Of a stretch of 64,000 nt of DNA, positions 1-48,344 are shown in pieces; position 1 is the first letter of the stretch; every line of letters starts with the position of its first letter. The position numbers and the translations under genes were made by a program. The DNA is from Chrysomallon squamiferum (lineage: Eukaryota; Animalia; Mollusca), in contig CM022665.1 of NCBI GenBank assembly GCA_012295275.1, positions 23,002,001 to 23,066,000 of the forward strand, in the 5' to 3' direction. The notes under the pieces are model-generated. The model was given only the letters and a program-made list of their open reading frames with translations, searched no databases and was not told where the DNA came from.

Positions 1-227
1 CAACAGCATACCTGTAAATAAATAAATAAAGGAAGAAGGAAATAATGTTCTTGTACTATCTAAAAAAAAAATGACATAAATTAATATTTTTTAATCATTG
101 AATTACTGTTATTTTGGAGAGTTTAAAATATACTGATAGATAAACAAAAAAAAAAAAAAAAAAAAAAAGAAAAAAGAAAATACAACAAAAAGAAGTAGGT
201 AAATAAATAAAATAAAAATAAAAATAA

Positions 228-230
<3 letters not shown>

Positions 231-283
<53 letters not shown>
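231..283. repeat. (TAA)n microsatellite
   Basis: Direct reading of the sequence. Confidence 0.9.
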
Positions 284-285
<2 letters not shown>

Positions 286-533
286 GTTATGCTTCAGAAT
301 TACCTCTTTTTTTAAATATAACTGCAAATGATTATATAGAGAGAAAAAGGTAAATAAATGAAATGAAATGAAAAAAAAAAAAATATATATATCAATCATA
401 TTATTTAAGTATTTTAGTAACTATAGTGATATCCACTGATATGAATTTATCTACTATAATGTTTTTCTGATTGAATAGTAAACCTAACACAATAATATTG
501 TTTATCTATTTTGTTGATATTTTCCCATGGCAG

Positions 534-18473
<17,940 letters not shown>

Positions 18474-20849
18474 ACTTAAAAATAGCAAAATGAAAAGGAA
18501 GAATAATAATTTTGAAAAACTGAGTACGCCATCTGTCTAGTTGGATGTTGCCCATCTGCAAATACCGGTGAAAGATATTTCAAATAAAATGAGACATACA
18601 AAATGATCATGACCCAGGCATGCTGATGATTTTTGTGACAATTTCCATCCATTGACAAGTGGCTACTGACTAGGTCTGTGATATATAATACAGATAAATT
18701 AATGAGTTACATATATGTATATATTATATATATAAAATATATGTATAAAACAGATTGTGATGTTTGTTCATTGTGATTCCAGTTCTAGATTGCTGTGATA
18801 CATTTGATGCAGATATTGAGTGAAGACTTGTGACAGTTTATAACTGTTCTCTAGTCATTTTACTCATTAATACATATATATATTTATAGTGGCATAAAAA
18901 AAATCTTAAGAATTTTTAATTTTTTTTTTTTTGACTTTACTTTTTTGTAAAATAAAAAATGCAATGAATAATTGTAATACACATTTTTTTTTTTTTAACA
19001 CATTTATCATACCAAATATATATTTTTATTTGTGTATGAATATGAATTTTTAAACAATCCATTTAGTTTCATTAATATATTATTAATCAGTGATCTTACC
19101 TAATCATTCTTTAATAAAACAAAAGTTTAATTACTTACAGAATGATGTTGAAGTTATTAAATTGTAACACAGCCATTTGGTTTTAGTACATTAACTGAAA
19201 TAAATCAAGAGTTTTAAAACTTTGCCATATTGAACAAACAGAAGTATTATTTGTTTATGTATTTTACACTAGTTTAAAATATTTCTCTAAAATAATAAAA
19301 ATAACAAAGTACTATAAAAGCATATAATGAATAATGAATTTAATAAGTCATTTCTAATTTTTGGTTTTTGGACCAAAATAAAGATCATATAATTCTTGTT
19401 TTAAATAATTTTCGGTTTCAAGAAATTTAAGGTATCATCTTGTTAAAAGCATTTATTGTAAATATTTATTTTTATACTGTAAATACAAGAACGTTTCTTA
19501 AATTTATGCATAATGTAAATGCTTGTACATACATTACAATGTTTTATGGAAAATACAAAATTCTTCACATTCTGTAGTGCATTTCCAAATTTGATCATGT
19601 TGGTAGCTGTCTTCACATTCAGAAATGTTACAAACATGTAATTTTTAGGAACATTTTCAAATTCAAATTCACACCAAAATAGTTTATTACACATGGAACA
19701 GATCACATAAGCAGCTTTAAAAAAAAAGAATTCTCCTAAATTTCTTTGCACAAGATATTTCAGTAGCATTTGAAACTTGTGATCTGGGATATGCTACCAG
19801 TCAACACTGAATTTGGAAAGTATATTGGATTCAGGATGAATACTGTATTATTATTTTTTAAATTTTACTGAACTGATCTGCATTTATTTATTGTATTAAC
19901 ACTGGTTCTATGCAAGGTTTGAGTGTCATCACCAAAAATATTTTGTCTTGCTTTTATAACCAGTTAACCTGAAATTGCTTCACTGAAATGTTTTATTACA
20001 TTATATTACTTGTTATTTATATAAATCAAAGATTTTTACCAAATTCATTTATTTCATACTTAACTTCTGAGTCTGATACATTAACTACACTGTTTTAGAG
20101 TGTATATAAGCAAAATTCTTTTTGTTGGGGGATAACACTTTTATTCTGAATTTTCCCAGACATTTTTTTTTTTTTATATATTATATTATTTTTTTATTTG
20201 GGCTGAATTAAATTGTTCTATTGATATTATTCTTTTGTATGTTATTCATTAATGCATTTTTCTGGAAAACCATTTTTCTTGTTTAAAACTGATTTAACAT
20301 AAGTGGTATTTATTCTATTTTATTTTATTTTTAATGTAGTATTGTTACATAATGCACATGAAGATTTTAAGCAACAGTTAAAAATGGTTCTATTATTTAA
20401 CAATCAGTGTGCATTACCAAATCAGAATTATATCAAATCTGTAATGTCCATATAATCTGGATTTACCATTTTTAAAATATAGTTCGTATAATTAAATATA
20501 AAATTATTAAACTGAAAATATTCATTATATCCAGTTGCAAATTGTATAGAGTGCAGTATAATTATTGAATGAAATATATTGATTGCAAGTAAACAGCCAT
20601 GCATAAAATGTTTGATTGGTCATGCATCTATGAATAACATGAACTTTGAATTATGGTAATTGTATATATTTATAATGTGTTAAAAATTCATACAAAGAAA
20701 ATTAAAAATATTTGAATTATGCATTTTGTTTTTCATGAATGAACTCAAGTTCTTGTGTTAATGAGAATGATTTGTTAATTGATTTCAAACATGTTGATTT
20801 TGTGAATATCTGAGTACAGGAATGCATGGCTTTCCTCATAATTGCAAAA

Positions 20850-21685
20850 GGATCATTCCATGTCAAATCACCCAAACAAAAAAGAAAATTTAAACCCGAC
20901 CATCTCAGATTTTTATCAAACTTGGTACACTTGTTGACTGGGATCCCACAGCACCAAATCTTAAATATTAGCCCAATCGGATCAGTGGTATGGGAGATAT
21001 GGCCCACCGACTTTTGAGATTTTTGGCAAAAATGGGCGTGACCACCAACCTTAGAACCCTCATATCTCAGGAACTACTGGGCCAATCTTCATAAAATTGG
21101 TATTGTTGAAAAGGCAATATGACAAGGATTCCAAATCTGCCATCTTAGTTAATCAGATGTTAATGGCTTCAAAGGAGTTATTTTCATGTATGTGCATTTT
21201 TTAAATCTATATTGTGGCTAAACAAAAAATATTAAACCCAGGAAAAATAAATATAAATGCAAAATCAAACCCATTCCTCTTTACAATGGGCATTTTTACT
21301 AACATACTTTTTTAATTTAAAATAAAATCAATTTTACAATATCCAATATCTTTTATGACCAAACATTTCTTCTCAGATACAAAATATCCATAATAAATAA
21401 AATAATCCCACTAACTTTACCTAGCCTAACAATTAATCAAGTCTGAGATAACATTCATTATATTAAACTAGTTCCTGAGATATGATGGTTCTAAGGTTGG
21501 TGGTCACACCCATTTTTGCCAAAAATCTCAAAATTCGGTGGGCCATATTTCCCATACCACTGATCCGATTGGGCTAATATTTCAGATTTGGTGCTGTGGG
21601 ATCCCAGTCAACAAGTATACCAAGTTTCATAGAAATCTGAGACGGTCGGGTTTAACCCATTGGGTGATTTGACACGGAATGACCC
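20850..21685. mobile_element. Non-autonomous DNA transposon (MITE) with ~220-bp TIRs and 4-bp TSD, possibly Sola2-like; carries a copy of CCS intron sequence
   Basis: Left arm 20850-21076 (GGATCATTCCATGTCAAATCACCCAA...TCTCAGGAACTA) is the reverse complement of the right arm 21469-21685 (TAGTTCCTGAGA...TTGGGTGATTTGACACGGAATGACCC), with about 11 substitutions and one indel block. AAAA flanks both ends. The superfamily is inferred only from the GG termini and 4-bp TSD. Confidence 0.92.
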
Positions 21686-22833
21686 AAAAGTTTAATATCC
21701 AAAAGTATTATTTATGACATTAATTAATTATCCTCAGAATAACACTTAAACATACACAGATAATAATAAAAAGCATGACTCATTATGTTTTTTATTCGTG
21801 ATCCAAGTTACAGTAACTTTGTTTAATGTCTACCACAAGAACAAAATATGTATCATTCATGGCGTGACAAACACATACAAAAATACAATTTTTAATATTT
21901 ATAATAACATCACTCTAATACGGGTAATCTTGTAGTCAAATTTCCCTTAATATATAGTAGAAAGTGAAAACCTTCCACACCACCATGCACAACAACAGAA
22001 CGGGCTACCACAATACTCATTAGTAGTGTCAGTCTTTGTTGCAAGTCAAGTACAAAACCACACCATTTATCCAACAGCTGGGACCAGTTGTGATTCAGAT
22101 ACATTTTCTGAAACAACCTTTATTACACATTCTAGTTGATTTTACTTGTTAAGCAAAAATGGTTTAGAGTTTTATATTATTATGTGGCAGTATGAGAGTT
22201 TAAATTATTTTAGAATGTCTAGGAATGTATATTTTTGTTTTTGTTTAGTCGTTATTAACTAGATCGTGTGTGAAGTGTTCACTCAGTGTACAACAGCAAG
22301 CTTTTCTTTTTACCTCCCACTGATGGAGTCACGAAACTCAGACTTTGACCATAACATGTTTAGAGACTATTGAACAATTTATAATCCATTACAAGTAAAA
22401 ACAAATATGAACTTAACCTTGGTGATGCTTGTAATGCCTATAGCTGCTAAAAATCCCATGTATGGTGTAGGTAAAAAGAAAATAATCATTATAATGGTGA
22501 CCTTCTTGAGTTCTTCAGTTTTATATCTTCGGTAACATTAAAACAAAAATCGAATAAAACATACGCTAATAAGGTGTTGACCTAAACTGCAAGGTTAACT
22601 GTAATTGTATTTAACAGACACAAATTAATACAATTCTACAGAGGGAGAGGGTGTCTGCAAACTTCATAAATGATCTAGTATCTGTGAATGTACCAAGTTT
22701 TGAAACCCGCGCCAGAATACAGTATCATGTGATACACGCAAATGGATTACGTTTTATACTATGTTTTCATTAATGTCATCTACTAAATTTCATAAAGCCA
22801 TATAGGTTATGTGAACATACTCACGTTTCAGCA

Positions 22834-23204
22834 ATGTCAGCGCCTACAAAGGTAAATGTTCTTTTGTTGTTGTTTTTTTAAACAGTATTCATTATTCGAT
22901 AGTTGAAATAGATGATGACAAAAAATAAAGTAACAACATGCTTAAGTTAATAATTAAAACAATACGTCAATACTGAAACCAGCTAGGAAATAACATGATT
23001 AATATGATGCAATAGGGGTTGAATAGCAGAAGTACCCAGTTTCATGACATTAAATTGAAAAGTCATCATGATGACTATGCTAATGGTCACAGAGTTTCGT
23101 ATGCATCGTGGTGCAATTTTGCAATGCTGCAAGCGTCTGTGATAGATGCATCATTGCATAGTGTTTTGAAAAATATAATGTTCGTAATAAAATAAAATTT
23201 AAAC

Positions 23205-23238
<34 letters not shown>

Positions 23239-25390
23239 ATAATAATAAACTGCATAGCTTAGCAAATAATTGCATAGTCATAAATAAGCAGCAGTGATAA
23301 AGCCTTCCAAACATATATATCATAAAGCTAAATAGCCTATTAACAAATCCAGTTACTAGAGTTACCTGTTTTTATTCAATAATTATTTACAGTTAGAATT
23401 TGCTGTTCAGATGACATGTCAGAGTTGTGTTGAAGCAGTGCACAAGTCCTTGAAAAATGTCAAAGGTAATATATCAGTATTAGTACGTTCTGTATATAAA
23501 TTCTTTATATTTTTAATTTACTTAAAGATATATAAAAACATATAGCCAAACCTCTTTATAACAGAGGTATTCTTTTCCTTTTGATATTTTAATGAGTTGG
23601 GTGGTATAATGAGTTATCTTGGATCATGAATTAGTGCATGCACCAAAGCATAGGTTTACTTTGTTTTATTTGCAGGTATTTCGTCAGTAGATGTCAACTT
23701 GGATACAGAAAAGGTTGTTGTAGTAACAACTCTGCCATCTGAAACAGTAAAATCACTGATCGAAAAAACTGGCAAACGAGCAGTACTTCAAGGAATGGGT
23801 TCAAGCAAAGGTAACATCATCAGTAAAATATACATTTTAATTAACTGACAAGTTTTTACTAATGGTATATAACATATTTATATTATTGTGATTATCCAAG
23901 TTACAAGTGATAATTTCTTGATATTGCTTTGTCTGATAAATTATATCAGAAACCAGTTTAAAGATATTTAAGTGGCAAAATTTTTTACTTTTGTTTTCTT
24001 TGTGGAAATTAAATATGTATTGATCCTAAAGAATTAAAGGGAAGAGAAATTTCTTCAACAATGTTAACAATTTTGTTTTTCACTAAATTTCTTCATTTCC
24101 AATTCTGTCTCTGTTTGTGTGTTTCTGTGTGTCTATTTTTTTTTTTTCTTTCTTTGTTTCTTGTTATATTTATAAATATTTTTACTACATACAGCTCCTA
24201 GTCATCTGGGTGCAGCAGTAGCCATACTAGATACAGGCAGTAAACTAGTAAAAGGAGTCATACGATTTGTACAGTCAGATGAGAAGACCTGTATAATTGA
24301 AGGTACCATTGATGGTCTGCCTCCTGGCAGCCACACTCTCTGTGTTCATGAACTTGGGGATATTTCACAAGGATGTAGCAGGTTTATTATTATTATTTTT
24401 TATTTCATTTATTTGAACTAGTTTAATATAATGAATGTTATCTCAGACTTGATTAATTGTTAGGCTAGGTAAAGTTAGTGGGATTATTTTATTTATTATG
24501 GATATTTTGTATCTGAGAAGAAATGTTTGGTCATAAAAGATATTGGATATTGTAAAAAATTGATTTTATTTTAAATTAAAAAAGTATGTTAGTAAAAATG
24601 CCCATTGTAAAGAGGAATGGGTTTGATTTTGCATTTATATTTATTTTTCAGTTGTGGTGACATTTTTGGTACTGGGTTAACAGAAAAGGTATGTATATTT
24701 TGAAGTGTTAATAGCTGAAACAGTACCATTAAAATACTTAAGAAAAATAAATAAATGAATAATAATAATATGAATAATAAAGAAAATAAAAATGTAATTA
24801 ATTTACAGATATATATTTTTATGATTAATATTAATTTTAAACAGGTAAAAGGCATTCTCCATGAACTTGATGTTGGAACAGATTCTCGAGCAGTATTCAG
24901 GTTTCAAGAAGAAAATCTTAAAGTATGGGATATAATTGGACGATCTGCTGTTATACATCAAGGAATAGTTGATGCAAAGGACTCTTCAGTTAATAAAACC
25001 GGAAATAACAGGTATCTTTATCAATTGTATAAATATATATAAAAAAATGTATTATATTGGTTTTAAAAATAAATTAACCATTAATTTTTTTGCATAATTA
25101 ATAATCTAAAGTTAACATAAATGTATTAACTGGTGAAAAATAAGAATATCTGGTATGAAATTCACATAAAGCTAGATCATTCTTCTTTTCTGTCAGAACA
25201 GATATCATGATATTTTTCATCTAGAAGTACACACTGTTGTTTCTATTTCAGATTGGTTTGTGGCATTATTGCAAGGTCAGCAGGCTTGTTTGAAAATCCC
25301 AAGAGAATCTGTGCCTGTGATGGTGTAACAATTTGGGAGGAAAGAGATAAACCACTGGCTGGTGGAAACAGATCAAACCTGTCCAGATAG
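22834..25390 (+). CDS. CCS: Copper chaperone for superoxide dismutase (251 aa)
   Basis: 7 exons: 22834-22851, 23393-23465, 23676-23810, 24195-24381, 24652-24688, 24845-25011, 25252-25390 (TAG); 756 nt. Domain I HMA motif LEFAVQMTCQSC; SOD-like domain II (GVIRFVQ, IEGTIDGL, VHELGD, KVWDIIGRS); domain III CGIIARSAGLFENPKRICACDGVTIWEE with the CXC motif. Confidence 0.95.
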
Positions 25391-26435
25391 TTTTCACAGA
25401 TGATGATTATAACCAAAAGACTCCATTGGTTTCTAGGAAACTGTTATTTTAATAGCTAATTTTAAGTCTTTGACACATCCACTAACATCAGATTTAGTCA
25501 TCTTATAGAGATATAACTGAAACTGGTTGTCTAATCTTATAATAAAAATGAGATTTGCTAATCTGAATATAAACCTGTAAACAAATCAAGTTAATTTTGA
25601 TTATTTCAAGACTTTAATTTTATGTACTGAACATTGGTATCAGCCTCTAATTTGAACTGAAACCGGTTGTCTGCCCATCTAATCCATTTGATAATTCTCA
25701 TCTATATAAAGACCTAAAAAAGTATTGGGATAATTTTTTAATCGTCACTAGTTGAATTATATGGTGGAATCTTCCCTGAAATGCTGAAGGAATATGCTGG
25801 TGACACTGATCACCTTTCTGTATTTATGAGAATTGTCTGCATATGAGTTTAGGTGAAAAGAAAAAAATGTCTGTGATATTTTCACATTTCTCATTTAATC
25901 CAGTGACCAAATGGTTCAATAAATTTTATGGAAATAAATAGTTGTTTATAATAATATTCAAATCTTTGTAAAAAAAAATTGTTTCTACAGTTATTGAATG
26001 AAAAACACATTTTTATCTCAAAACAATTTTCTTTTTAGACTTGTACTAATTTAGCCATTTTAATTTCTTAATAAAATTGATGATACAACAAAATATGTTG
26101 TTGTTATATATGTATGGCTGACAACAATGGTTTAAAGAAACCTCTGCATTAAAACGTCTTTAAATAAAAATAGTTTGTACCTCACTGATGAAATATATTT
26201 GCTGACATTCAGCTATCAATACAATTAATATTCAGCAAATGTTTAACTCTTGAAAGACGAAGTAAACCACAACATAGATTCTAATAATAATAATAATTGC
26301 TTTTTAATTTAGAAAATAAATATTAAACAATCATTTTCAATTTGTTGTTTGTTTTGTGGGTGGGTTGTGTTTTTGTGTGTGTTTTTTTTAAATGTGTTAG
26401 TATAAAAGTTTACAATTAACTCGATGTGAAAATAT

Positions 26436-26860: not shown

Positions 26861-29800
26861 ATGGGCGTAAGTTTATCATAAATTGTGTGAAGCCTATTTC
26901 ACAACTATTGTCTTACTGAATCATAAATGTTAAATGATGCTTCTTAATAATATCGTCTTCAAGTTAACGGTTTCAGGTTTGGGAGTAGGATATCTCTTCT
27001 TGGAAATGTGTTTTCTTTCTAAAAAAATGAATTAATAATAATAATTAGTAGTGGTATTATGATTTTTTAATGCAGTGTCTAGCGAAATCGGATATTAAAT
27101 TAGTAGTATCTTTAAGTTCATTCTTTTTTATACTAAAATCTGTGAATGTAGGAATAAGCCCCCCCGGGACAAAAGACCCCCACTCCCAGTCCGAAAACAC
27201 ACTGGCGGATAAGAAGTCAAATTTGCAGGGTAGGATAAAAGCCAGCAAATGAAAAATCGACGTAGGACAAAACACCCCAATGAAGAAGCATAGTAGGACA
27301 AAACCCCCACAGATGAAATGTAGAGTAGGACAAAAGCACCCCCCCACAGAAAACAACAACAACAACGAAAAAACTTCGCAAACACTCACTTTATTAAAGC
27401 ATATGTACTACATATCTTTATCAAAATTAGCATAATAACGACGTGATTATCAGTTTAATGTGTGTATTTCAGCAACATAATTAATTACTATAAAATAACT
27501 GATAAAAATAACAAGATAAAAGATACAGTTTGAAGGGAGAATTTTTATCAAAGCATACACGGTCATGTTGCATGAAACGAGATAATGTACCTTAGTACAC
27601 TGGGAATTTCACTGTTTTCAAAATTATATATAATTGCAGAAAAATAATATCAAAACATGATGAAAACTCTAGACATCATTGGATACTGTGACCTAATGAA
27701 AAAATCATTTCACATTTTCTAAGGCATGCTGTGTCACTTAAAGTTAGTCAGTTATTAAAGCAGATCACACCAAATTTACTATTGATAATTTGGTGTCGGG
27801 GGGGGAATGTTAAATGTTAAATGTTTTAAGTTGAGAAGCATTTATACTACCTTGTTTTTTATGTATTTGAGGGGCGTTTGTCTGACTTTGTTTTTTCACT
27901 GGGGGGGTGTTGTCCTAACTTGCATTTCCATGGTGGGGGCTTTTGTCTATCTGCATTTTTTGGATTAGGGTGCTTATGTCCATATCCCAAAATTCATAGG
28001 TTGCTTGTCTGTAGTGTCATTAACTTAAAGATAGTCACTTTTATTGTAAAATTATACTATAATTTACACATATAAGAAGATTCACTAATTTTGAGTTAAT
28101 GATATATCCCAAATTTAAATAATAATAATAAATAATTAAATAAAACAAAAAAATAAATAAAAAAATAATAAAAAAATATGAATTTACCCAATTTATTATA
28201 AGTTGTCTTAACTTAAAAAATATGTTGGATAATGTTCATTAATACATCTGAGCAAGCATTGTGATTCAGGTTGCATACTTCCCTTGTTTTCTCAGAGAAA
28301 ATCAGCAAAAGGAAAAGAAAAGAAGCTAAAAAGGAAAGAGGTAACTAATACTTTTTTCTATTTAATTTTCTAATTTAGTATATGTAGACCTATGCACCAT
28401 GAAATAAAGGAAATGGTTTTTTAGATTAGTATATATTTATATAGGGAAACTCCTCTAAAACAAAGATCCTTGTGACTGAATCAGTTGTTCAATTTGGAGA
28501 GGTGTTTAGTTTTCTGAGGTTTCAAGAATGAACCTTTCTTTACAGGGTGTACAGATTAAAAACAACAACAAAAACAAAAAACAGTGACAAAAAAAAAGCA
28601 ATGACCAAATTTTAGTGTGAACTCTTTATAAAGATGGCTGAACAATTTTAGAGAACTCCTTTGCTCTCTGTTAACAATCACATTGTTAGTCAGCTATGAA
28701 AACCTTTGTTAAAAAGTTCAATATTTAAGAATCGTTTATCGTTATAAAATGTTTTTCAACTTACTGATCATTTTGAACACTTGGATGTAGGTCATGCCAC
28801 TTCCTGGTAGCACAAACATCTCAGATTCCACTGTTATTATAATTATTTTTGGATTAATCATATTTGCTATTAGACAAGTTGATCACTAAATCCTCTTCCC
28901 AAGTTTCTAAATTATCCTCATCACTGCAGCATCATTAAACTATCCAAATGATTTGTGTGAATGTTACAATTTAATTCAGTTGCAAGATGTCCTAATGGAA
29001 TGCCATTATCTTCTTCATTTGTCATCAAGTCACCAGGCACAGAAGTATATACTTCTTATATCTAGTTTTGAAAGCCCCAGAAATATTTTGTTCAAGTAAC
29101 TGGAGATGTAAATATGTGTTGGCAGGCAAACACGTAAAATTCATGTTACTCAAGGCCATGTGAAGCTGCATTATCAAGAAATATTATAATTTTTCTCTTC
29201 TGTCTTTTCAGTATGCTATGCAGCAAGTAAGTATGTAGGTTTTCAGCCATACTTTCTTGTTTGCTACAAGTGTTTTTAGTTTCTCTCCAGGAGCACTGTA
29301 GGCAGACATTACTGTATCCATTCTTTTGATGATTTGCAGCCTTTGATTGAAAGTCTTTGAGTTGGCAGAGCACAGAAAAACAAACCAGTTTCATAACTGT
29401 TAAACATATGCTCTAGTGAAAAATTGCCAATAATATCCAGAATTCTCACTTAGTACTCATCTACAACTGCAATGTCAATGCCACTAACTCCCACTGACCT
29501 TGAATCCAGAATATCTCACTTTTCACCTGTCCAACCTAACAACAGATTCTGTAATAGACAATGTCTTTGCAAATGCATTTGTTTGTCTTGAATTACTTGG
29601 CCACTGACAGGTATGTTTTTCACAAGCACATGACAAAACCACTGCCAAACATGATCAAGACCACATAGTGTGTTCAGTAATTGGAGAGAGAGGTTTTCAG
29701 GGTTAATCAGACCAGGGAATGCCAGAAGACCTTCCTCACCAGTGGACAACCAGAATTCCCCTTTCCCCAAAACAGATGATAAGGCACCCCTACCAGTGGA

Positions 29801-36429: not shown

Positions 36430-37724
36430 GTTAAGTAACATGTTTTGATATAAATTAATAAGTTTTACCAAAGTTAATCTCAAAAAAAAAAAAGAAAAAA
36501 AAAGAAAGAAAAATAAATCAAACTAAAATACAGTGGTACCTTGACTTACAAGTTTAATTCATTCCATGACTAAGCTCATATCTCAATTTGCTTGTATAAC
36601 AAATTAATTTTCCAAAATGAAATTAACTGAAATACCATTAATCTGTTCCAGTCCACCCAAAAAACCACCCCATTTTTTAAATAAGAAAAATGTATTTATA
36701 AATGACATATATTGTATGAAAATTAAAATAAAAGAGAATGTAAAGAAATAAATTGGTTTTGTAAACTGTATTTATCTTGTAGCCTTTGGTTGACATTATA
36801 GCCTTTATCAACTTCTGCTTCAGTATGGTACATATAGAGGTTCTATGCTTGTACTGCTTAGCCAAGTCGACTACACACACACCTCGCTTGTATTTTTTTA
36901 CGATTTCATGCTTTAATTCAATGGACATCATCTGCATCTTCTTCTCAGCACTGTCCTTTGCACTCACTCCTTTATCAAAAAAGAAATTTGGCAAAATACT
37001 GAACAAAATGCAAGCAATACACCACCGAGATGCTTCAACTGTGATAAACATGTTAAGTAAATGAATGAGATGTGGGATTATTGGCGGATGTTGTGTTTGT
37101 TGTGCCAACTCAAAGCAAAACATTGACCAGGCAAATGCTTGTAACTTGGAACACTCCCAAGTTGAGGTACCACTGTACTCCTAGAAACACACATTCAAAC
37201 AAAAATAAAACAAAACAGAAAAAAAACAAAATATATATGAACTAATGGCAGTTAAATAAACCATTTCAAAACAATACAGTAAAATAAAGTCCAATCTTTT
37301 AAAAAGAAATAAAAATCCTTGATTATTATGTATATAAAGGGAAGAGCCAACTGTAAACGTTAGAAATGTTAGTTAAATAACGTTTTGATACAAATTAATA
37401 ATTTTTACCAGTCTCAAAAAAAACAACATTTAAAATAAAAAAAAAGCAATTAAGAAAAAGAAATCAAACTAAAATACTCCTAAATACACATATACAAACA
37501 AAAATAAAACCAAACAAAATTCCTACATATATATATAAAGCAAAAATGATTAGAAATATTAAAGAGACAAACAAAATCACTTATAAACTAATGCCAGTTA
37601 AAGAAACCATTTCAAAACAATACAGTAAAATAAAATCACAACAATTTAAAAAGAGATAAAAATTCTCAGTTATTATGTATGTGGAAGGAAGAGCCAACTA
37701 TGTATCATTTTTTTAGAAATGTTA
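36430..37724. repeat. Tandem duplication of a ~300-350 bp unit; the first copy is interrupted by the Tigger element
   Basis: Shared blocks GTTTTGATAYAAATTAATAA, AATCAAACTAAAATA, ACTAATGSCAGTTAAAKAAACCATTTCAAAACAATACAGTAAAATAAA, GGAAGAGCCAACT and TTAGAAATGTTA occur in both 36430-37370 and 37371-37724. Confidence 0.85.
36531..37175 (-). mobile_element. Tigger/pogo internal-deletion derivative with TIRs and TA TSD
   Basis: TA|CAGTGGTACCTTGACTT ... AAGTTGAGGTACCACTG|TA. Retains a transposase N-terminus (MMSIELKHEIVKKYKRGVCVVDLAKQYKHRTSICTILKQK, CENP-B N-terminal HTH-like); no DDE domain. Confidence 0.92.

Positions 37725-38843: not shown

Positions 38844-48344
<9,501 letters not shown>

What the first reader, a model, noticed from the sequence alone, without database searches (positions are those of the whole stretch)
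20850..24651. MITE carries a near-perfect inverted copy of the neighbouring CCS intron, with junction microhomology
Seen: 21242-21474 inside the MITE is the reverse complement of 24415-24649 in CCS intron 4 (233 vs 235 bp; the only difference I find is two As in a homopolymer). The copy covers about 87% of that 270-bp intron and stops at the base before the acceptor AG. At the right junction the TIR and the intron share TAGTTC, and arm symmetry breaks exactly there. Known: DNA transposons acquire host sequence by abortive gap repair/template switching (Pack-MULE, Ds and P-element filler DNA). Inference: this is a very recent capture from a template 3 kb away, seen at its site of origin, and the element still has both TIRs so it could spread the intron fragment. 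The two inverted copies also bracket the CCS promoter and exons 1-4, making a possible inversion substrate.
Basis: partly seen in the sequence, partly recalled or inferred. Interest (0 to 1): 0.8.

Follow-up and report, generated by a model that had tools for sequence, protein, structure and literature searches.

The report
Transposon repair scar with shifting border
A copy of a very common non-coding jumping element beside an animal copper-chaperone gene carries a flipped 233-base copy of that gene's intron in place of probably a quarter of its own middle, most likely pasted in during DNA-break repair; both joins occur in public sequencing data, the piece has not visibly spread, and it is an ordinary case of a known class, although one border appears to differ between individuals.

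Summary
Observation confirmed: 21242-21474 is the reverse complement of CCS intron 4 (24415-24649), differing only in one A-run, inside an 836-bp TIR element. It is not an artefact: contigs from public runs reproduce the left junction (X1) and the right junction (X4) letter for letter. It is not family consensus: the element arms lie at thousands-fold depth, the insert at one to two copies. A relative (L015) shows that about 210 bp of element were replaced by 223 bp of intron. The left junction has 4-bp microhomology (GAAA), which explains the stop before the AG; the right has 6 bp. This is a single-copy Pack-TIR, the gap-filling class of Tan et al. 2021 (PMC8277862). The scan noted similar captures on other DNA. 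One twist, inferred: three runs carry a left junction 10 bp further in, suggesting later gene conversion moved the border. No contig joins both junctions; inversion is untested.

The parts
20846..20849 (+). Left 4-bp target-site duplication candidate AAAA
   Evidence: relatives with both ends show 4-bp TSDs (L007/L029 AGTA, L011 TTCT)
20850..21143 (+). Left TIR, 294 bp here (284 in relative L015; 10-bp insertion near 20875-20884; third base A where the family has G)
   Evidence: family contigs leave the left arm at 21143 (table 7)
21144..21245 (+). Surviving element interior, family sequence
   Evidence: Depth 1.7e4-4.7e5 against 11-92 in flanks; 21187-21245 aligns to L015
21242..21245 (+). 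Left microhomology GAAA; start of a 14-bp stretch (21242-21255) where family and intron agree at 9 of 14 in register
   Evidence: Family loose ends behind 21245 in X1, X2, X3, X4, X5; L015; 9 of 14
21242..21474 (-). Captured inverted copy of CCS intron 4 (intron-only part 21246-21468, 223 bp), replacing an estimated 210 bp of element (143 interior + 67 right TIR)
   Evidence: one- to two-copy depth
21246..21255 (+). Variable border: intron letters in the window and X1; inferred element letters in X2, X3, X5 (junction at 21255/21256)
   Evidence: records 1 and 11, table 3; table 3; bookkeeping
21469..21474 (+). Right microhomology TAGTTC
   Evidence: family loose ends before 21469 equal the reverse complement of left arm 21077-21106
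21469..21685 (+). Right TIR remnant, 217 of about 284 bp, intact terminus
21686..21689 (+). Right TSD candidate AAAA
22834..25390 (+). CCS-type gene, 7 exons (22834-22851, 23393-23465, 23676-23810, 24195-24381, 24652-24688, 24845-25011, 25252-25390), 252 aa
   Evidence: model from sequence, not checked with RNA
24415..24649 (+). Donor segment in CCS intron 4 (24382-24651), ends at the base before the acceptor AG
   Evidence: run contigs carry it joined to the exon-4 side (loose end behind 21474)

Best explanation
An 836-bp copy of a high-copy, non-coding TIR transposon carries an inverted 233-bp copy of the neighbouring CCS intron, most likely copied in when a break inside the already inserted element was repaired by a template switch to the intron 3 kb away and back. 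Shown: the copy, both junction sequences in run contigs, the high-copy family without the segment, one- to two-copy depth of the segment. Inferred from one 87-89% relative and family loose ends: about 210 bp of element (143 interior, 67 right TIR) were replaced by 223 bp. Inferred: the 284-bp arms can fold back and make the interior fragile; synthesis switched onto the intron at a 9-of-14 look-alike stretch on the left and returned at TAGTTC on the right. Inferred, less firm: the allele is common or fixed among sampled individuals, has not transposed again, and its left border was later moved by 10 bp by gene conversion, from the intron or from another family copy. It is a neutral repair scar, a single-copy Pack-TIR; no function is proposed.
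For: Left junction: X1 contig of 56 nt, 21216-21271, 0 differences, depth 49.7, exactly the 26 31-mers that span a 4-bp overlap; next contig 21242-21289 at depth 150.6 against 67-84 in flanks. Right junction: X4 contig of 54 nt, 21445-21498, 0 differences, depth 59.4, exactly the 24 spanning 31-mers; total depth 120 there against 56-60 in flanks. Family lacks the segment: arm/interior depth roughly 1,500-6,300 times flank depth (rough), segment 11-84; family contigs leave at 21245 and rejoin at 21469 with other letters, the same letters as L015; 0 of 48 loci with the terminal 23-mer hold the segment; lost and inserted sequence are unrelated (120 of 300 shuffles score as well). Microhomology chance per junction: 0.026 for 4 bp or more, 0.0035 for 6 or more. 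Element older than capture or copy homogenised: 6 listed sites where 97% or more of family depth differs from the window in 613 bp (15 rows not shown) against 0 substitutions in 233 bp. Fold-back: -243 kcal/mol, z -40.6 (expected of any long TIR). Second left junction: X3 contig 21221-21313 with 6 differences, two listed (21251 T, 21255 G), same two in X2 and X5; the family differs from the window at 21246, 21247, 21249, 21250, 21255, which accounts for 5 of the 6. Class match: Tan et al..
Against: No contig joins both junctions, and neither window-form junction contig has 31 letters on both sides, the tool's own bar for bridging. The right junction is seen in 1 of 4 runs; in X1, X2, X3 and X5 the intron contig runs unbroken across it to the exon-4 side. 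The window-form left junction is seen in 1 of 4 runs, and X1, the best holder, may be the sample the window came from. I put the gaps down to graph simplification and the tool's filter (the exon-5 side contig is missing in 4 of 4 runs, the shared segment in X4), but did not show this. The four unlisted differences of the X3 contig are inferred, not read. A break in X1's contigs at 21260/21289 is unexplained. The 210-bp loss rests on one relative. The gap is about 26% of the element, far above the 4.6% median of Tan et al. No element without the capture, and no empty site, was seen at this locus, so the order of events is inferred.
Confidence: 0.8

Rival explanations
1. Same product, other trigger: the element was excised by a transposase and the gap was refilled from the sister or homologue, with an abortive switch onto the intron (P-element or Ds-type filler DNA).
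For: The family looks young (most laid contigs 90-100% alike); the replaced part is large (about 26%), which Tan et al. expect of excision gaps.
Against: Both breakpoints are internal (396 and 217 bp from the ends); the left terminus is changed in X1 and X2 as in the window; Tan et al. found orthologous elements without capture in 91 of 97 primate cases. No transposase for the family was identified.
Confidence: 0.12
2. The second left-junction form belongs to a second, transposed copy elsewhere, so the intron piece has begun to spread (multicopy Pack-TIR).
For: Contigs break inside the repeat, so the X2/X3/X5 junction is not physically tied to this site.
Against: The two forms exclude each other across the 4 runs that show a left junction; the alternative form lies at about single-copy depth (15.3 vs 11.6 in X3; 97.3 vs 58-92 in X5); the element is present at this site in X2 (flank contigs enter it on both sides); segment depth never exceeds double.
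Confidence: 0.05
3. Assembly artefact: the insert was mis-filled into a repeat or comes from a chimeric read.
For: The only difference is a homopolymer length; the window differs from 4 of 4 runs at 20625 and 22255; no contig spans the whole insert.
Against: Both junctions occur letter for letter at about single-copy depth in runs of two studies, with double depth on the shared part; X5's contig has the A4 form without a gap; neither junction contains GATC, where X4 and X5 contigs otherwise end.
Confidence: 0.02
4. The segment is family consensus and the intron was derived from the element.
For: None found.
Against: Depth falls from 1e4-1e5 to single copy at 21245 and rises again at 21469; L015 and family loose ends carry other sequence there; GC 0.23 like the intron, against 0.37 for the lost part.
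Confidence: 0.01

Closest known systems
Single-copy Pack-TIRs of animals (Tan et al. 2021, PMC8277862; seen: abstract, outline, parts 1-2 of 10 of the text, Methods section 14, search passages; supplements not read)
   Same: Non-TE sequence of 100-5000 bp between the two halves of one TIR element; donor close by (160 of 281 within 15 kb, most under 5 kb); microhomology at breakpoints (190 of 281; 1-36 bp, median 2); internal breakpoints; single copy; intronic sources occur.
   Different: Replaced part about 26% of the element against a median 4.6%; element is neither hAT nor Tc/Mariner by its ends; two forms of one junction segregate. 'Gene conversion' and 'mollus' occur 0 times in that paper's main text.
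P-element and Ds filler DNA by abortive gap repair; Pack-MULEs (as summarised in the Introduction of PMC8277862; otherwise recalled)
   Same: Template switch to a nearby sequence during gap repair, deletion plus filler.
   Different: Those are tied to excision or, for Pack-MULEs, often come from unlinked donors and are multicopy in about a third of cases; here cis, single copy, trigger not shown.
Sola2-type non-autonomous elements (4-bp AT-rich TSDs: passages of PMC3627910; GRG ends and long TIRs recalled, source paper not held)
   Same: 4-bp TSDs (AAAA here; AGTA, TTCT in relatives), GGG...CCC ends, TIRs of about 284 bp.
   Different: TSDs seen are not AWWT; no Sola transposase found, so the superfamily is only a lead.

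Membership tests
Single-copy Pack-TIR (Tan et al. 2021) | Internal non-TE sequence of 100-5000 bp flanked by two parts of the same TIR element | tested here: met
   223-233 bp between family sequence ending at 21245 and resuming at 21469
Single-copy Pack-TIR (Tan et al. 2021) | Both flanks cover at least 10 bp of the element's termini | tested here: met
   20850-20859 matches with 1 mismatch, 21676-21685 exact; L015 terminus
Single-copy Pack-TIR (Tan et al. 2021) | Parental copy at 90% identity or more, length ratio 80-120% | tested here: met
   99.1%, 233/235
Single-copy Pack-TIR (Tan et al. 2021) | Unique best parental hit and single copy genome-wide | tested here: inconclusive
   No genome held. 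Unique in the window; depth one to two copies in 5 runs, but contigs drop variants
Single-copy Pack-TIR (Tan et al. 2021) | No TE within 100 bp of the parental copy (excludes segmental duplication) | tested here: inconclusive
   No piece of this element there; flanks are 33 bp of intron plus exon 4, and exon 5; no repeat library to test other families
Single-copy Pack-TIR (Tan et al. 2021) | Microhomology at breakpoints (common, not obligatory) | tested here: met
   6 bp right, 4 bp left in the window form; none at the exact point in the inferred second form
Single-copy Pack-TIR (Tan et al. 2021) | Orthologous element without capture in an outgroup (transposition-independent origin) | not testable with these tools
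   No eukaryote genomes; 0 of 48 loci match the flanks
MITE / non-autonomous TIR element | TIRs, TSD, no coding capacity, high copy number, short | tested here: met
   TIR about 284 bp, 4-bp TSD, one 118-aa stop-to-stop frame only, depth thousands-fold, intact length about 823 bp, at the long end for a MITE
Sola2 | 4-bp AT-rich TSD | tested here: inconclusive
   4-bp length met in the window and in 2 distinct complete relatives (L007/L029, L011); L022 fits only with one extra base; L006 does not fit; sequences are not AWWT
Sola2 | Sola2-type DDD transposase in the autonomous partner | tested here: inconclusive
   An ORF about 1 kb inside the terminus of two 68-73% relatives (L018, L043; 150 of 152 aa identical) has no Pfam hit and no longer homologue at E 0.001 among 579 candidates
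Multicopy (mobilised) Pack-TIR / Pack-MULE-like | Several copies of the capture with different TSDs | tested here: not met
   Segment depth at most double in 5 of 5 runs laid; 0 of 48 family loci hold it

The most novel reading that the evidence does not exclude
The capture and its donor intron, 3 kb apart and inverted, still exchange sequence: the original left junction lay at 21255/21256 with no exact microhomology, and conversion from the intron later pushed the border 10 bp outwards across a 9-of-14 look-alike stretch to GAAA. Microhomology at such junctions could then be made after the event instead of recording the template switch, and near identity would not date the capture. All four combinations of A4/A6 and A/G at 21346, 15 bp apart, are seen (window), as conversion predicts, though A-run slippage can do the same.
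Probability: 0.35. Interest if true: 0.5.

Novelty: new member of a known kind. Interest (0 to 1): 0.3.

Why it matters
As it stands it is one more of a described class (370 cases in 100 animal genomes) and matters little: intronic, non-coding, no sign of spread or function. It is a clean, verifiable example with the lost element sequence recoverable from a relative. If the two left-junction forms are alleles linked by conversion, it would be a small natural test of whether junction microhomology in Pack-TIRs is original or secondary, and of whether a 233-bp inverted repeat around half of a conserved gene ever recombines.

Tried and rejected
Genome-wide BLAST: no genome held. Segment as family consensus, and intron derived from element: rejected. 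Splice-related or RNA-templated boundary: rejected as unnecessary; the copy lacks the AG and the stop coincides with the GAAA overlap. Old homology between lost and inserted sequence: none. X3's 93-nt contig as the intron-to-exon-5 path: rejected, that path differs at 12 of 21 over 21221-21241. Simple inversion heterozygotes with one copy of the segment: disfavoured, since junction depth is at single-copy level in X3, X4, X5 and the shared part is double in X1; not excluded for X2. Inversion between the two copies: contigs of 31-mers cannot phase it; no test. Uncovered parts (segment in X4, 21720-21790 in X5, exon-5 side in all) prove nothing. Restriction-ligation chimera: X4 and X5 contigs end at GATC sites (20851, 21800), but the junction contigs hold no GATC. 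A contig matching briefly at 21258 and 21329 is not from the window; treated as chance. Rfam: 0 matches in 20000-26000. Genome contigs: 0 matches to the terminus. Superfamily by transposase: no Pfam hit, Atlas gave no answer, no longer homologue, relatives' records could not be extended. Bacterial promoter scan: irrelevant, at chance. Literature searches for a described shift of such a border (listings only) gave none; this is weak, as most subscription papers are not held.
Full report
Observation. The window holds an 836-bp element at 20850-21685 with AAAA on both sides; its arms differ at 9 of 187 bases in the core. Inside it, 21242-21474 is the reverse complement of 24415-24649, with no substitution and one A-run of 4 against 6. 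The donor lies in intron 4 (24382-24651) of a 7-exon, 252-aa gene with HMA and Sod_Cu Pfam hits and the MxCxxC and CxC motifs of CCS (the name CCS rests on these and on recall). The gap between the copies is 2,940 bp.

Is it real? No genome is held, so I used public runs (11 listed, 9 holders, 3 studies, all as contigs) and laid 5 of them: X1, X2, X4, X5 on 20300-22400 and X1, X3, X4, X5 on 21205-21515. With 31-letter words, a junction with a 4-bp overlap should give a contig at 21216-21271 and one with a 6-bp overlap a contig at 21445-21498. X1 has the first (56 nt, 0 differences, depth 49.7) and X4 the second (54 nt, 0 differences, depth 59.4). The shared part is at about double depth where it stands alone: 150.6 in X1 against flanks of 67-84, and 120 in X4 against 56-60. 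The depth tables add up exactly from the listed contigs. Limits: neither contig has 31 letters on both sides; X1 may be the source sample; the right junction is missing in X1, X2, X3 and X5, where the intron contig runs through to the exon-4 side, and no left junction is listed for X4. The contigs come from a simplified graph (PMC12424806, passages) and the tool filters records; the exon-5 side contig, which must exist, is missing in 4 of 4 runs. So the absences are weak, but I did not prove their cause.

Is the segment part of the family? No. Element sequence lies at summed depths of 1e4-1e6, about 1,500-6,300 times the flanks (rough); depth drops to one or two copies after 21245 and rises again at 21469. 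Family contigs leave the window after 21245 and rejoin at 21469 with other letters; the letters before 21469 equal the reverse complement of the left arm. A scan for the terminal 23-mer found 48 metagenome loci; one, L015, is an 87-89% relative that still has the interior, with the same letters as the loose ends. Between GAAA and TAGTTC it has 210 bp (143 interior, 67 TIR) where the window has 223 bp of intron; the two are unrelated. The TIR is 284 bp and the intact element about 823 bp. None of the 48 loci holds the segment or the flanks. The left overlap GAAA is the TTTC before the acceptor AG, so the stop at the splice site needs no splicing explanation. Overlaps of 4 and 6 bp or more arise in 2.6% and 0.35% of random pairings.

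A second left junction. X3 has a 93-nt contig over 21221-21313 with 6 differences and no gap; two are listed, T at 21251 and G at 21255, and X2 and X5 show the same two. The family differs from the window at 21246, 21247, 21249, 21250 and 21255, and the contig starts exactly 30 letters before 21251, as it should if 21221-21250 is family sequence. I infer that element sequence runs 10 bp further in these runs and the intron starts at 21256; X5's long contig does start at 21256. The two forms have equal length and exclude each other across the four runs, at about single-copy depth, so they are probably alleles. Family and intron agree at 9 of 14 in register here, so either could convert the other. 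X2 shows a 61-nt arm centred on 21251, so the second form probably has its own variation; it is in 3 of the 4 runs with a left junction. I lean, about 60:40, to it being the older form. The four unlisted differences were not read directly.

Age and mobility. Flank contigs enter the element in X1 and X2 on both sides and in X4 on the right, and 5 of 5 runs laid show a junction contig, so the capture is shared, not private. The element differs from nearly all family depth at 6 listed sites in 613 bp (15 rows not shown), the copy from its donor at 0 of 233 (upper 95% bound 1.3%): the capture is younger than the insertion or has been homogenised, and this cannot be told apart. The left terminus has a changed third base and a 10-bp insertion, the right TIR is shortened, and nothing suggests spread. 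A crossover between the copies would invert CCS exons 1-4 and leave intron 4 without its AG, so such an allele would likely be selected against; contigs cannot test it.

Mechanism. Most likely a break inside the resident element, which can fold into a long hairpin, was repaired by synthesis that switched to the nearby intron on the opposite strand and back (inferred). Excision-triggered gap repair gives the same product and is the main rival. Later conversion at the left border is inferred with less confidence.

Known kinds. This meets the testable criteria for a single-copy Pack-TIR in Tan et al. 2021 (PMC8277862): 370 cases in 100 animal genomes, 160 of 281 within 15 kb of the donor, microhomology in 190 of 281, 1.4% multicopy, attributed to transposition-independent gap filling. 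I did not read its supplements, which list the cases and may hold junction variants. The element's 4-bp TSDs and GGG ends suggest Sola2 (PMC3627910 passages; ends recalled), untested for want of a transposase. PMC10294476 and PMC4455052 (passages) added nothing decisive. The scan's notes hold three similar local captures in other genomes, unchecked by me; none by sequence or in this genome.

Verdict. Real, well supported, a new member of a known kind; interest 0.3. The one feature beyond the textbook case is the apparently polymorphic border.

Noticed in passing
window 20625 and 22255: All 4 runs read T at 20625 and G at 22255 where the window has C and T: errors in the window or a haplotype not sampled.
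   Followed up: no
window 21978-22117 and about 22424-22537, minus strand: Two stretches with splice-like borders and short open frames (69 and 52 codons) between the element and the CCS start; possibly exons of a transcript running away from the CCS promoter towards the element. No RNA laid.
   Followed up: partly
L018:2479-2934 (+), L043:1-510 (-): A Cys/His-rich ORF about 1 kb inside the terminus of longer, 68-73% relatives of the element, 150 of 152 aa identical between two loci; perhaps the start of the family's transposase; no Pfam or longer homologue.
   Followed up: partly
L001-L048: The same 23-bp terminus occurs in 48 metagenome loci, most sharing only the outer 25-65 bp; complete short elements of 757 bp (L007, L029) and 493 bp (L011) have 4-bp TSDs: a widespread element group with varied interiors.
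   Followed up: partly
window 21144-21245: Family contigs show other interiors (loose ends before 21145 and 21193), and L015 differs upstream of 21187: several subfamilies share the TIR.
   Followed up: no
runs X4, X5 at window 20851-20854 and 21800: Contigs end at GATC sites, in X5 with 4 extra letters, as restriction-ligation libraries would give.
   Followed up: partly
window 37224-37352 / 37569-37699: A 131-bp direct repeat at 85% identity.
   Followed up: no
window 29146-29412 (-) and 36677-37180 (-): A weak DDE_1 hit (E 5e-4, below cut-off) and a frame that looks like a pogo/Tigger-type DNA-binding start (recalled; no Pfam hit): probable decayed transposon pieces.
   Followed up: partly
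window 1-18500 (+), 38953-48344 (-): Neighbours: a long leucine-rich-repeat gene ending about 2.4 kb before the element, and adenylosuccinate synthetase exons (Pfam).
   Followed up: partly
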